Shown here: positions 4,136-6,241 of the stretch, one piece after another
Position numbering within the stretch: position 1 is the first letter of the stretch
Layout of the letters: every line of letters begins with the position of its first letter
The notes under the pieces: model-generated
Database searches by the model: none
The model's input: only the letters and a program-made list of their open reading frames with translations
What the model was told of the DNA's origin: nothing
Position numbers and translations under genes: made by a program
Source of the DNA: Mariniblastus sp.
GTDB taxonomy: Bacteria; Planctomycetota; Planctomycetia; Pirellulales; Pirellulaceae
Assembly: GCA_051010835.1 (NCBI GenBank)
Contig: JBPCVC010000024.1
Span: forward strand, 8,229-72,228
DNA: 64,000 nucleotides
Reading direction: 5' to 3'

Positions 4136-6241
4136 ATGAGAATCAACCCGGTTTCAATATTTCGATTATGCCTATCGATTTTGTTGGTTTGCCTGGCTAG
4201 TTTCCCGATTTTTGCTCGGGAGGGCGGGTCAGGTATTGAGGTTAATCCGGTTGAACGATCGCAACAGAAGACGAATGTTGTGGTCATTATGGGGGATGAC
4301 TGGTCCTGGCCACACGCCTCGATTCTTGGCAACTCGGTTTTAAGGACACCTGTCTTTGACCGCATCGCGCGAGAAGGCGTGTTGTTTGAAAATGCATTTT
4401 CCAATGCACCGTCCTGCACGCCGGCTCGTTTTGCGTTTCTAACGGGACAGTATCATTGGCGGTTGCAAGGTGCAGAACGACTAGGCGGTTCCTTGCAGGC
4501 GGATGTTCCGGTCTATCCGGATCTTCTCGCTCAAGCTGGGTATTTAGTTGGATTCTCGAGGAAGGGGGCGGAGCCAAGTCAGCATTTGTTTCGGGGAAAT
4601 GATCCCTGCGGTAAACGCTATAAAAATTTTGATCAATTTCTTTCAGCCCGAAAATCAGGCCAGCCATTTTGTTATTGGTACGGGGCCGGGGAGCCGCATC
4701 GCCCCTACCCTTGGCGTTCGAGTGAATTGAATGGCATGAAGATCGCGAAAGATGATGTGCCCGCGTGGCTTCCCGATTCACCAGACGTGCGGACGGATAT
4801 TGGTGACTACTTTTTGCGCATTCAAAAGCTCGATCAGTTTGCGGGAGAGATAGTTGACCGATTGACTGAGATAGGAGAACTGGATAACACCCTGTTGATT
4901 ATGACGGGTGACAACGGAATGCCTTTTCCGAGAGCCAAGGCGACGCTTTACGACGCTGGAACGCGCGTCCCGATGGCCATTCGCTGGGGAGGTAATCTTC
5001 ATCCAAATCGCCGAGTTTCAGATTTCGTTTCCTTCGTCGACATGGCTCCTACGATTCTCGATGCTTGTGGAATCGATATTCCCTCGGTTGTCAGTGGTGG
5101 TTCCTTACGCAGCCAGTTGGAGTTAGAGCAAGGCAATTGGATTGATGTGAAACGAAATTCGGTTTTAACCGGTCGGGAAAAGCACGTGTATTACTTGCCC
5201 TCCCGAGCGTTGCGGGATGCAGAGTATTTGTATATTCGAAATTTTTCTCCTGCGAGTTGGAAGCAGGGGCAGCAAGCTGGAAAGCAACCTCATTACGATT
5301 TTTTGAAGACGCCTTGGCCGACTCAACCGCCAGCATTCTCGTTTGATGTTGACCCATCGCCTAGTAAACAGTGGATGTTAGAAAATGACGAGGAACCAAG
5401 TGTCGAGAAATTGAATCAGTTGGCTTTTGGTGAGCGTGATGATGAGGAACTCTATGAATTGTCATCGGATCCGGATCAATTGGTGAATTTGGCAAACTCC
5501 CCCGAATACCGAGAGGTGCGTGACCGGATGTCCGCGGAGTTAACTGAGCGGTTGCGAGGGACTAATGATCCCCATTTTAAATTGGAAAGTCATGCGAGTT
5601 TCGAAGTTCAGGGATGGAAGGTGAACCTTCACGATCGACTTTGGCAAGAGTCTCCTGGTAAAACCAAGCGGATGTTGAAATTGCTTTCGCAGCAACTGGC
5701 CAGGCTGGTTGCCGTCGTTCCAGATAAAGCTGTGAGACAAATGCAGGCGGTTTCCATCTGGGTTAATCCGCCCTACCCCGGTGTGCGTCCCGGAGCTGAA
5801 TACCACGGGAATCGTGGCTGGTTAAAAAATAATGGGCGAGACGTGCGGATGGGGAAATCGGTAGAGATTACCAATGTTGATAATTTCGAGTTTGAGAATA
5901 TTCGAATGCCCTACCTAATGTTGCATGAATTGGCACACGCGTATCACGATCAGGTATTAGGGTTTGGAAATTCCAAAATTCGAGGGCAGTACGAAGCCGC
6001 ACGTGATTCGGGTAGCTATGACTCGGTTAAGAGATTCACCGGACGAAAGATTATCAATGACAAAGCGTATGGGATGAACAATGGCAAAGAATATTTCGCT
6101 GAATCAACGGAAGCTTTTTTTGGAAAGAATGATTTTTTTCCCTTCAATAGAGAAGAGCTAAAAGCGCACGACCCCAAGATGCATGACCTCTTAATTGAGC
6201 TTTGGGGAGTGAGTACCGGCGTCACCGAGTCTAATAACTAA
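4136..6241 (+). CDS. Sulfatase (sulfamidase-like S1) fused to a C-terminal HEXXH zinc-metallopeptidase-like domain
   Basis: Signal peptide; DD, CTPARFAFLTG (CxPxR), HRPY, GDNGMPFPRAK; C-terminal about 210 aa with LHELAHAYH and KEYFAE. Confidence 0.85.
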   Translation: MRINPVSIFRLCLSILLVCLASFPIFAREGGSGIEVNPVERSQQKTNVVVIMGDDWSWPHASILGNSVLRTPVFDRIAREGVLFENAFSNAPSCTPARFAFLTGQYHWRLQGAERLGGSLQADVPVYPDLLAQAGYLVGFSRKGAEPSQHLFRGNDPCGKRYKNFDQFLSARKSGQPFCYWYGAGEPHRPYPWRSSELNGMKIAKDDVPAWLPDSPDVRTDIGDYFLRIQKLDQFAGEIVDRLTEIGELDNTLLIMTGDNGMPFPRAKATLYDAGTRVPMAIRWGGNLHPNRRVSDFVSFVDMAPTILDACGIDIPSVVSGGSLRSQLELEQGNWIDVKRNSVLTGREKHVYYLPSRALRDAEYLYIRNFSPASWKQGQQAGKQPHYDFLKTPWPTQPPAFSFDVDPSPSKQWMLENDEEPSVEKLNQLAFGERDDEELYELSSDPDQLVNLANSPEYREVRDRMSAELTERLRGTNDPHFKLESHASFEVQGWKVNLHDRLWQESPGKTKRMLKLLSQQLARLVAVVPDKAVRQMQAVSIWVNPPYPGVRPGAEYHGNRGWLKNNGRDVRMGKSVEITNVDNFEFENIRMPYLMLHELAHAYHDQVLGFGNSKIRGQYEAARDSGSYDSVKRFTGRKIINDKAYGMNNGKEYFAESTEAFFGKNDFFPFNREELKAHDPKMHDLLIELWGVSTGVTESNN

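What the first reader, a model, noticed from the sequence alone, without database searches (positions are those of the whole stretch)
4136..6241. Sulfatase fused to a HEXXH zincin domain
An exported sulfamidase-like sulfatase (intact CxPxR) continues in frame into about 210 aa with HELAH plus a downstream EYFAE, the zincin HEXXH+E arrangement. One chain that both desulfates and cleaves peptides would suit sulfated glycoproteins such as mucin- or proteoglycan-like substrates. I do not know of this fusion being characterised.
Basis: partly seen in the sequence, partly recalled or inferred. Interest (0 to 1): 0.65.

Follow-up and report, generated by a model that had tools for sequence, protein, structure and literature searches.

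The report
Sulfatase fused to zinc-protease-like domain
This marine planctomycete gene really does join a sulfate-removing enzyme to an intact zinc-protease-like domain. The fusion is conserved in many related bacteria, so it is not an assembly error, but nobody has tested what the second domain cuts.

Summary
ORF 4136-6241 (+) encodes 701 aa: a signal peptide, a formylglycine-type S1 sulfatase (residues 45-485, C94-T-P-A-R98) and, with no linker, a 208-aa domain (486-693) carrying H597-E-L-A-H601 and Y645-x6-E652-Y-F-A-E.

It is not a chimera. 119 of the 121 best homologue clusters (45-95% identity, Planctomycetota and Verrucomicrobiota) have both domains. Five independent Mariniblastus-like assemblies hold the gene at the same chromosomal site. 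dN/dS is about 0.05 for each domain.

The sulfatase is closest to SulfAtlas subfamily S1_8 (human sulfamidase, galactose-2-O-sulfatases) at 23-25% identity. The C-domain is a distant relative of anthrax lethal factor (M34) and MtfA (M90) gluzincins. No solved structure is close; the best is Klebsiella MtfA at TM 0.44.

The C-domain belongs to a large undescribed family of at least 3,164 clusters at 50% identity. Its members stand alone as secreted proteins, occur in tandem, or are attached to sulfatases, SASA/GDSL esterases and S9 peptidases.

The best reading is an exported two-activity enzyme for sulfated glycoconjugates. Peptidase activity and the glycoprotein substrate are inferred, not shown. 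This is an undescribed variant of known kinds, of moderate interest.

The parts
4136..6241 (+). Whole gene: 701-aa exported sulfatase-zincin fusion protein (P0001), stop codon included
   Evidence: Orthologues of 82-89% identity lie at the same locus in G006, G010, G013 and Mariniblastus MAG L011, and one of 62% in L012.
4136..4216 (+). Predicted Sec signal peptide, residues 1-27 (MRINPVSIFRLCLSILLVCLASFPIFA)
   Evidence: Sequence and hydropathy. The AF2 model gives a low-confidence helix at 8-20 followed by a disordered stretch at 25-42. dN/dS of residues 1-44 is 0.28-0.41, against about 0.05 for the domains. Inference; no SignalP was run.
4268..5590 (+). S1 (formylglycine-dependent) sulfatase domain, residues 45-485, S1_8-like
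   Evidence: Pfam PF00884 E=1e-38 and PF16347. Best PDB sequence hits are S1_8A 9bb9 (1e-35) and SGSH 4mhx. Foldseek finds 9bep, 9bba, 4miv and 9bb9 at E about 1e-27.
4415..4429 (+). C94-T-P-A-R98 formylglycine motif. Other active-site residues: D54/D55 (4295-4300), D259/N260 (4910-4915), K268 (4937-4939)
   Evidence: These align with SGSH D31/D32, residue 70/R74 and D273/N274. They are invariant or nearly so. Five FGE-like genes are present in the genome.
5591..6214 (+). Lethal-factor/MtfA-like gluzincin domain, residues 486-693
   Evidence: ATLF scores 28.6 bits (cut-off 27.4) on the isolated domain. All 25 homologues hit ATLF and 22 hit M90. AF2 pLDDT is 93.9. The best Foldseek hit is 3dl1, prob 0.84, TM 0.44.
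5924..5947 (+). Active-site helix motif H597-E598-L-A-H601-A-Y-H604: two predicted Zn ligands, the general base, and an extra invariant His
   Evidence: The helix spans 594-608 in the model.
6068..6121 (+). Y645-G-M-N-N-G-K-E652-Y-F-A-E656-S-T-E659-A-F-F: predicted third Zn ligand E652 (EXXA motif) with Tyr 7 residues upstream
   Evidence: hhalign places it on E. coli MtfA Y204...E211-C-F-A...E218-Y-F-F. E211 is the Zn ligand of MtfA (PMC13482132).
5798..5806 (+). Invariant E555-Y556-H557 on a beta-strand of the zincin domain; role unknown
   Evidence: strand 554-557 in the model.

Best explanation
The gene encodes a Sec-exported enzyme with two catalytic domains. The N-terminal part is a formylglycine-dependent S1 sulfatase of S1_8-like type. 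Its Cys94 would be converted to formylglycine by one of the genome's FGE homologues, and it most likely removes a sulfate ester from the end of a sugar chain. The last sulfatase helix runs straight into a 208-residue gluzincin domain of the lethal-factor/MtfA lineage. In that domain H597, H601 and E652 would bind zinc, E598 would act as general base and Y645 would stabilise the transition state, so it should hydrolyse an amide (most likely peptide) bond. Shown here: the architecture, the intact and invariant catalytic residues, strong purifying selection on both halves, the wide conservation of the fusion, and the modular use of the zincin domain in PVC bacteria. Inferred: that both sites are active, and that they act together on sulfated glycoconjugates with a peptide part, such as sulfated glycoproteins or proteoglycan-like polymers of algae, animals or marine particles. 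On that reading desulfation and backbone cleavage would each open the substrate to the other.
For: The ORF and motifs are present. The sulfatase assignment and active-site residues are supported. FGE genes are present, and the genome is sulfatase-rich with 142 Pfam Sulfatase (PF00884) matches. The zincin residues are invariant. Pfam ATLF and M90 hit across the family, up to 41 bits. The Y-x6-E-x-F-A motif aligns with the MtfA zinc-ligand helix (PMC13482132). The AF2 models are confident: pLDDT 86 and pTM 0.83 for the whole protein, 94 for the domain. The best structural neighbour is Klebsiella MtfA, 3dl1. 119 of 121 homologue clusters have both domains, and all but three keep the catalytic Cys. 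Fused sulfatase domains sit on one side of a 100/100 branch against the nearest unfused paralogues. dN/dS is 0.04-0.06 in both domains. Synteny holds in five assemblies. The zincin module is also fused to SASA, GDSL, BD-FAE and S9/DPPIV domains, and sulfatase or SASA genes are frequent neighbours.
Against: No member of this zincin family has been assayed or solved. The similarity to M34/M90 is remote: Foldseek E=0.2, and a PDB profile search found nothing. 55 of the 80 best loci have no sulfatase within 6 kb, and most copies in Planctomycetota are stand-alone, so the module does not depend on a sulfatase. The gene's neighbours (M42 peptidase, TerB, MoxR) are not a polysaccharide-utilisation locus, and they stay in place in relatives that lack the gene. 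An extra invariant His604 and the E555-Y-H557 strand are not features of lethal factor or MtfA and could signal a different chemistry. The relative position of the two active sites could not be measured because no coordinates were available.
Confidence: 0.55

Rival explanations
1. Both domains are active but functionally independent. The zincin would be a general secreted or periplasmic peptidase for protein and peptide scavenging, and fusion to a sulfatase would merely ensure co-export and co-localisation.
For: Most family members are stand-alone secreted proteins of 240-290 aa. The module is fused to S9/DPPIV exopeptidases. An M42 aminopeptidase gene lies just upstream. 55 of 80 loci have no sulfatase nearby.
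Against: The fusion is ancient, linker-free and kept with both sites intact in more than 100 clusters across two phyla. Its partners are enriched for enzymes that strip decorations from glycans, namely sulfatases and SASA, GDSL and feruloyl-type esterases. The M42 neighbour is present whether or not the fusion gene is there.
Confidence: 0.2
2. The zincin-like domain is not a peptidase here. It could hydrolyse a non-peptide amide or ester on a glycan. Alternatively it could serve as a substrate-binding, regulatory or self-processing module, much as MtfA's established role is to bind the repressor Mlc.
For: MtfA's physiological substrate is unknown and its established role is protein binding (PMC13482132). 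The extra invariant H604, E555-Y-H557 and N665-D666 are not explained by the lethal-factor/MtfA catalytic scheme. The partners are mostly carbohydrate-decoration esterases. Some tandem copies have lost HEXXH.
Against: The full catalytic set (two His, base Glu, ligand Glu, Tyr) is nearly universal in the family, including in stand-alone secreted forms. That is hard to explain for a pure binding module. From my own knowledge, characterised HEXXH gluzincins are overwhelmingly peptidases.
Confidence: 0.2
3. The fusion is an assembly or binning artefact joining two unrelated genes near position 5580.
For: The genome is a 134-contig draft, and reads could not be inspected.
Against: The same uninterrupted ORF occurs in G006, G010, G013 and two public Mariniblastus MAGs with the same flanks. 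It also occurs in 119 homologue clusters from NCBI, ENA, JGI and Logan, including complete genomes such as Rubripirellula lacrimiformis (8.5 Mb contig). There is no composition break at the junction.
Confidence: 0.01
4. The lethal-factor-like domain is a toxin or effector directed at other cells, as in polymorphic toxins that carry lethal-factor-like metallopeptidase heads.
For: Lethal-factor-like metallopeptidase domains are known toxin modules in some bacteria (PMC3482391).
Against: The protein has a plain Sec signal. No delivery domain, repeat or immunity gene is nearby. The domain is fused to catabolic hydrolases. The listed toxin clades do not include planctomycetes for this domain.
Confidence: 0.02

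Closest known systems
SulfAtlas subfamily S1_8: human N-sulfoglucosamine sulfohydrolase SGSH (PDB 4mhx/4miv) and the exo-galactose-2-O-sulfatases S1_8A/B/C of Pseudoalteromonas distincta (PDB 9bb9, 9bbd, 9bba)
   Same: They share the alkaline-phosphatase-like fold, the CxPxR formylglycine motif and the DD...DN metal site. These are the best sequence and structure matches. Characterised members are exo-acting on the 2-position substituent of a terminal hexose (PMC5066984; bioRxiv 10.1101/2025.01.09.632246).
   Different: Identity is only 23-25%. Lys268 replaces SGSH Arg282. None of the solved S1_8 enzymes carries a zincin domain; the C-terminal extra domain of S1_8C is unrelated by sequence. 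No formal SulfAtlas classification was run.
MtfA / YeeI (MEROPS M90; E. coli, Klebsiella PDB 3dl1)
   Same: It is a gluzincin of similar size (about 210-250 aa) with HEXXH on one helix and Y-x6-E-x-F-A-x3-E-x-F-F on a later helix. It is the best Foldseek hit. Pfam M90 matches many family members above cut-off.
   Different: MtfA is cytoplasmic and acts as an anti-repressor of Mlc. The present domain is exported, has extra invariant residues (H604, E555-Y-H557, N665-D666), scores only 16 bits against M90 (cut-off 26.2), and reaches only TM 0.44.
Anthrax lethal factor catalytic domain and Pro-Pro endopeptidases (MEROPS M34; Pfam ATLF PF07737)
   Same: The HEXXH + Glu zinc site has similar spacing. 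The first His to the ligand Glu is 49 residues in lethal factor (PMC5668564) and 55 here. The Pfam ATLF model matches the HEXXH-to-Glu core.
   Different: The match is borderline and covers only profile positions 113-190. No M34 structure was recovered above noise except Certhrax at E=2.9. No toxin architecture is present.
Multimodular sulfatases such as the GH78 rhamnosidase / S1_25 sulfatase FA22250 of Formosa agariphila (PDB 6hr5)
   Same: One polypeptide combines a sulfatase with a second hydrolase acting on the same marine polymer (PDB titles).
   Different: The partner there is a glycoside hydrolase. Here it is a zincin-type domain, a combination I could not find described.

Membership tests
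S1 formylglycine-dependent sulfatases (Pfam PF00884, SulfAtlas S1) | Significant match to the sulfatase / alkaline-phosphatase-like domain | tested here: met
   PF00884 at 133.8 bits against a cut-off of 25; Foldseek E about 1e-27 to many S1 structures.
S1 formylglycine-dependent sulfatases (Pfam PF00884, SulfAtlas S1) | C/S-x-P-x-R motif supplying formylglycine | tested here: met
   C94-T-P-A-R98. The Cys is present in all but 3 of the homologue clusters.
S1 formylglycine-dependent sulfatases (Pfam PF00884, SulfAtlas S1) | Divalent-metal ligands (Asp-Asp ... Asp-Asn) and a catalytic Lys/His set | tested here: met
   D54, D55, D259 and N260 align with SGSH D31, D32, D273 and N274. K143, H188 and K268 are conserved.
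S1 formylglycine-dependent sulfatases (Pfam PF00884, SulfAtlas S1) | A maturation enzyme (FGE or anSME) in the genome | tested here: met
   Five PF03781 FGE-like genes, best E=1.7e-44.
S1 formylglycine-dependent sulfatases (Pfam PF00884, SulfAtlas S1) | Sulfate ester (or sulfamate) hydrolysis | not testable with these tools
   Needs an enzyme assay.
SulfAtlas subfamily S1_8 / sulfamidase (EC 3.10.1.1) | Assignment by the SulfAtlas subfamily HMM or phylogeny | tested here: inconclusive
   The best PDB hits by sequence and fold are S1_8, but at 23-25% identity. SulfAtlas models were not available.
SulfAtlas subfamily S1_8 / sulfamidase (EC 3.10.1.1) | Arg at the SGSH Arg282 position (from my own knowledge, a feature of the N-sulfamidase site) | tested here: not met
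   Lys268 aligns there, as does the Lys of the O-sulfatase S1_8A.
Gluzincins (clan MA(E)) | HEXXH on a helix | tested here: met
   H597-E-L-A-H601 within predicted helix 594-608; invariant.
Gluzincins (clan MA(E)) | Third zinc ligand Glu on a downstream helix | tested here: met
   E652 in helix 650-662 aligns with MtfA E211, the EXXA motif (PMC13482132).
Gluzincins (clan MA(E)) | Zinc binding and peptide-bond hydrolysis | not testable with these tools
   Needs metal analysis and assays.
MEROPS M34 / Pfam ATLF (PF07737) | Score above the Pfam gathering threshold | tested here: inconclusive
   25.6 bits in the full protein (below 27.4) and 28.6 bits for the isolated domain (above). Relatives reach up to 40.9 bits.
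MEROPS M34 / Pfam ATLF (PF07737) | Structural similarity to a solved M34 catalytic domain | tested here: not met
   No M34 peptidase among the Foldseek hits with E<1. Only Certhrax 4gf1 appears, at E=2.9.
MEROPS M90 / Pfam Peptidase_M90 (PF06167) | Score above the Pfam gathering threshold | tested here: not met
   14.5-16 bits against a cut-off of 26.2 for this protein. Some family members do pass, up to 41.4 bits.
MEROPS M90 / Pfam Peptidase_M90 (PF06167) | Fold similarity to MtfA | tested here: inconclusive
   3dl1 is the top hit, but at E=0.2, prob 0.84 and TM 0.44-0.45.

The most novel reading that the evidence does not exclude
The C-terminal domain founds a new, PVC-centred family of exported gluzincins, at least 3,164 clusters at 50% identity, that are specialised for decorated glycoconjugates. 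On this reading it is a plug-in backbone-cutting (or amide-cutting) module that evolution has repeatedly wired to enzymes removing sulfate, acetyl or feruloyl groups. In this protein desulfation and cleavage would be mechanically coupled on one rigid two-domain scaffold, giving a 'sulfo-glycoprotein peptidase' with no characterised counterpart.
Probability: 0.3. Interest if true: 0.65.

Novelty: new variant of a known kind. Interest (0 to 1): 0.45.

Why it matters
Planctomycetota and Verrucomicrobiota are the main degraders of heavily sulfated marine polymers, and they carry a hundred or more sulfatases whose substrates are mostly unknown. A conserved sulfatase that drags a protease-like domain along points to substrates with both sulfated sugars and a peptide or amide backbone. 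Current polysaccharide-centred models of marine carbon turnover largely ignore that class. It also exposes a large, unannotated zincin family: databases call these proteins simply 'sulfatase' or 'hypothetical'. That family could yield new glycoprotein-specific proteases for glycoproteomics, as the mucinases did. The claim can be tested directly with one recombinant protein and two point mutants.

Tried and rejected
2. A profile search of the C-domain against PDB sequences gave only noise.
3. The promoter/terminator scan of 2500-6800 was uninformative, with fewer hits than in shuffles.
4. Gene context as a guide to function led nowhere. The neighbours (Bax1-I, Lon-N, GNAT, M42, TerB, a 639-aa unknown, MoxR) are not a utilisation locus, and they stay in place where the fusion gene is absent. 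The neighbours of a stand-alone copy in Novipirellula are unrelated.
5. All-against-all clustering of flank ORFs in the 80 loci was dominated by spurious high-GC frames. Only sulfatase and SASA-like clusters were meaningful.
6. In a FastTree of zincin domains the sulfatase-fused copies were not monophyletic (19 changes). However, many metagenomic proteins are truncated and therefore mislabelled, so I draw no conclusion on repeated fusion or fission.
7. The primary MtfA structure paper (PMC3370624) is not held. MtfA residues were taken from PMC13482132 instead.
9. The toxin reading and the chimera reading were considered and rejected (see rival explanations).
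Full report
**1. What is in the sequence**

The + strand ORF 4136-6241 is open for 701 codons. A GAGGAG box lies 9 nt before the ATG. Residues 1-27 (MRINPVSIFRLCLSILLVCLASFPIFA) have two basic residues, a hydrophobic core (15-residue Kyte-Doolittle mean up to 2.46) and a small residue at -1, so they look like a Sec signal peptide. No signal-peptide predictor was available, so this is an inference.

Pfam finds Sulfatase (PF00884, residues 47-313, E=1e-38) and SGSH_C (PF16347). In the C-terminal third it finds weak matches to ATLF (PF07737, residues 594-686, 25.6 bits) and Peptidase_M90. CTPAR is at residues 94-98, HELAH at 597-601 and EYFAE at 652-656.

**2. It is not a chimera**

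A search of 5.8 billion proteins returned more than 100 clusters that cover over 90% of the query at 45-95% identity. They come from NCBI, ENA, JGI and Logan assemblies and are named Mariniblastus, Rubripirellula, Novipirellula, Aureliella, Verrucomicrobiales and Limisphaerales.

- With HMMs built from each half, 119 of the 121 best clusters contain both domains. The other two are cut by contig ends.
- In the species-representative genome set the intact fusion occurs in three further genomes of the same genus, G006, G010 and G013.
- In five independent assemblies (G006, G010, G013 and the two public Mariniblastus MAGs L011 and L012) it lies between the same neighbours: an M42 peptidase gene upstream, and TerB, a 639-aa unknown and MoxR downstream.
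- GC content shows no break at the junction.

**3. Both halves are under the same strong constraint**

Against three orthologues, Nei-Gojobori dN/dS is 0.043-0.051 for the sulfatase domain and 0.042-0.063 for the zincin domain. It is 0.28-0.41 for the signal peptide and linker.

In 25 homologues of 45-85% identity several sulfatase residues never vary: D55, R98, R189, D259 and K268. Others are at least 90% conserved: D54, K143, H188 and N260. In the C-domain, E555-Y556-H557, H597, E598, L599, H601, H604, Y645, E652-Y-F-A-E656, E659 and N665-D666 never vary.

**4. The sulfatase half**

The best PDB relatives by sequence are S1_8A of Pseudoalteromonas distincta (9bb9, E=1e-35), BT4656 (5g2v) and human sulfamidase SGSH (4mhx). 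Foldseek of the AF2 model (pLDDT 86, pTM 0.83) gives S1_8C, SGSH and S1_8A at E about 1e-27 and 18-25% identity.

- The alignment puts D54/D55, C94/R98 and D259/N260 on SGSH D31/D32, residue 70/R74 and D273/N274.
- Lys268 falls on SGSH Arg282 and on the Lys of S1_8A.
- Known S1_8 activities are N-sulfoglucosamine sulfohydrolase (PMC5066984) and exo-galactose-2-sulfate 2-O-sulfohydrolases (bioRxiv 10.1101/2025.01.09.632246).

So 'S1_8-like exo-sulfatase' is justified and 'sulfamidase' is not.

The genome has 142 Pfam Sulfatase (PF00884) matches and five FGE-like genes, so maturation of Cys94 is feasible. A maximum-likelihood tree of sulfatase domains places 51 fused sequences and 12 of the nearest unfused paralogues (about 44% identity, 488-598 aa, no zincin hit) on opposite sides of a 100/100 branch. 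This is consistent with a single ancient fusion.

**5. The C-terminal half**

Taken alone, residues 486-701 score 28.6 bits against ATLF, just above the 27.4-bit cut-off. All 25 homologues hit ATLF and 22 hit M90. Other family members reach 35-41 bits on both models.

The AF2 model of the domain is very confident (pLDDT 93.9). It has the zincin layout: a small sheet, an active-site helix (594-608) carrying HEXXH, and a later helix (650-662) carrying E652.

Foldseek finds no solved structure at E<1e-3. The best hit is 3dl1, a Klebsiella 'putative metal-dependent hydrolase' that I know to be MtfA, at prob 0.84 and TM 0.44. It is followed by M1 aminopeptidases/LTA4H and Certhrax. A sequence profile finds nothing in the PDB.

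hhalign against E. coli MtfA aligns Y645-x6-E652-Y-F-A-x3-E659-x-F-F with Y204-x6-E211-C-F-A-x3-E218-Y-F-F (E=0.0018).

- In MtfA, H148, H152 and E211 (the EXXA motif) bind zinc (PMC13482132).
- In lethal factor the ligands are H686, H690 and E735, with E687 as the base (PMC5668564).
- From my own knowledge, lethal factor also has a catalytic Tyr seven residues before the ligand Glu.

The complete catalytic set of this lineage is therefore present and invariant. H604, E555-Y-H557 and N665-D666 are extra invariant features that I cannot explain.

**6. The zincin domain is a widespread module**

A full HMM search of 1.84 billion representatives found 3,164 clusters at 50% identity with E<=1e-3, of which 955 have E<=1e-30. 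Among the 145 top representatives whose sequences were examined, almost all keep HE[LF]xH and E[YF]FAE, and most begin with a signal-like segment.

The forms seen are:
- stand-alone proteins of 240-290 aa;
- tandem doublets and triplets;
- fusions.

Of 72 proteins of at least 400 aa, the partners were sulfatase (9), SASA carbohydrate esterase (6), S9 peptidase (5, two of them with DPPIV_N), BD-FAE (4), Abhydrolase_3, GDSL lipases, carboxylesterase, FG-GAP and others.

In one-genome-per-species contigs at least 589 loci encode it, overwhelmingly in Planctomycetota and Verrucomicrobiota. Among the 80 best loci, 14 are sulfatase fusions, 11 have a sulfatase within 6 kb and 55 have none. SASA-like genes recur as neighbours in 10 loci.

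In an even sample of 201 Planctomycetota genomes, 30 carry the domain, usually as one stand-alone copy. This genome has only the one copy.

Larger relatives of the present protein add a second sulfatase in front (1,150-1,230 aa), a second zincin copy behind (950-1,050 aa) or a PQQ beta-propeller.

**7. Context**

The gene is a single-gene presence/absence polymorphism. In more distant genomes of the genus (G003, G005), M42 is followed directly by TerB. The neighbours therefore say little about function.

**8. Interpretation**

The most economical reading is an exported bifunctional hydrolase. The sulfatase mechanism follows the established S1 chemistry: formylglycine hydrate attacks sulfur, with Ca2+ and Lys/His assistance. 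The zincin would use a zinc-bound water activated by E598. I put about 0.95 on the fusion being real and selected, and about 0.7 on the zincin site being catalytic. I put about 0.35-0.4 on the specific idea that it cleaves the peptide part of sulfated glycoconjugates in concert with desulfation.

The partner spectrum supports a role in stripping and cutting decorated glycoconjugates. The partners are enzymes that remove sulfate, acetyl and feruloyl groups, plus exopeptidases. However, the many stand-alone copies also allow an independent general peptidase role. The unexplained invariant residues leave room for a non-peptide substrate or a binding role. The chimera and toxin readings are effectively excluded.

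**9. Novelty**

Four full-text searches found no description of a sulfatase-zincin fusion or of this zincin family. Databases name these proteins 'sulfatase-like hydrolase/transferase', 'arylsulfatase A-like' or 'hypothetical'.

Multimodular sulfatases are known, for example the GH78/S1_25 enzyme of Formosa agariphila (PDB 6hr5). Lethal-factor/MtfA-like gluzincins are also known. This is therefore a new variant of known kinds, and it uncovers a large uncharacterised peptidase-like family. Earlier notes of this scan on a secreted HELAH...EFFAE zincin and on a protease/beta-helix giant among sulfatases point the same way, but they are not independent evidence.

Noticed in passing
window 3973-6293 (between the M42 gene and TerB); loci L100, L103: The sulfatase-zincin gene is a single-gene presence/absence polymorphism. 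In G003 and G005 of the same genus, M42 is followed directly by TerB. In G006, G010, G013 and MAGs L011/L012 the fusion gene sits between them.
   Followed up: partly
homologues P0047, P0115, P0116 (alignment A1): Three fused homologues have replaced the catalytic Cys of CxPxR (SSVSSR, SPTASR, SSTPSR) while keeping HEXXH and EYFAE. At least P0115 probably has a dead sulfatase with a live zincin site.
   Followed up: partly
window 5798-5806, 5945-5947, 6128-6133: Invariant E555-Y-H557, H604 and N665-D666 in the zincin domain have no counterpart in the lethal-factor/MtfA catalytic scheme. They could form a second metal or anion site.
   Followed up: no
loci L025, L027, L060, L063, L064, L077, L078, L085 (Verrucomicrobiota and Pirellulaceae): A recurrent protein form of about 600 aa carries the zincin domain at the C-terminus behind about 380 residues with no Pfam match. 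In L025 part of that stretch looks like a degenerate second zincin copy.
   Followed up: no
relatives P0015-P0046, P0044-P0098, P0075/P0085/P0105: Elaborated versions of the same core exist: an extra N-terminal sulfatase (about 1,150-1,230 aa), a second HEFAH zincin copy (about 950-1,050 aa), or a C-terminal PQQ beta-propeller (about 1,090-1,120 aa).
   Followed up: partly
whole genome G000: There are 142 Pfam Sulfatase (PF00884) matches and five FGE-like genes in a 5.3-Mb draft, about one sulfatase match per 38 kb. Several of the open frames holding them are very long (up to 2,125 aa).
   Followed up: no
window 2690-3973 (+): The M42-family aminopeptidase gene 162 nt upstream on the same strand is far more conserved (94-97% identity) than the fusion gene (82-89%) across the same genomes.
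   Followed up: partly
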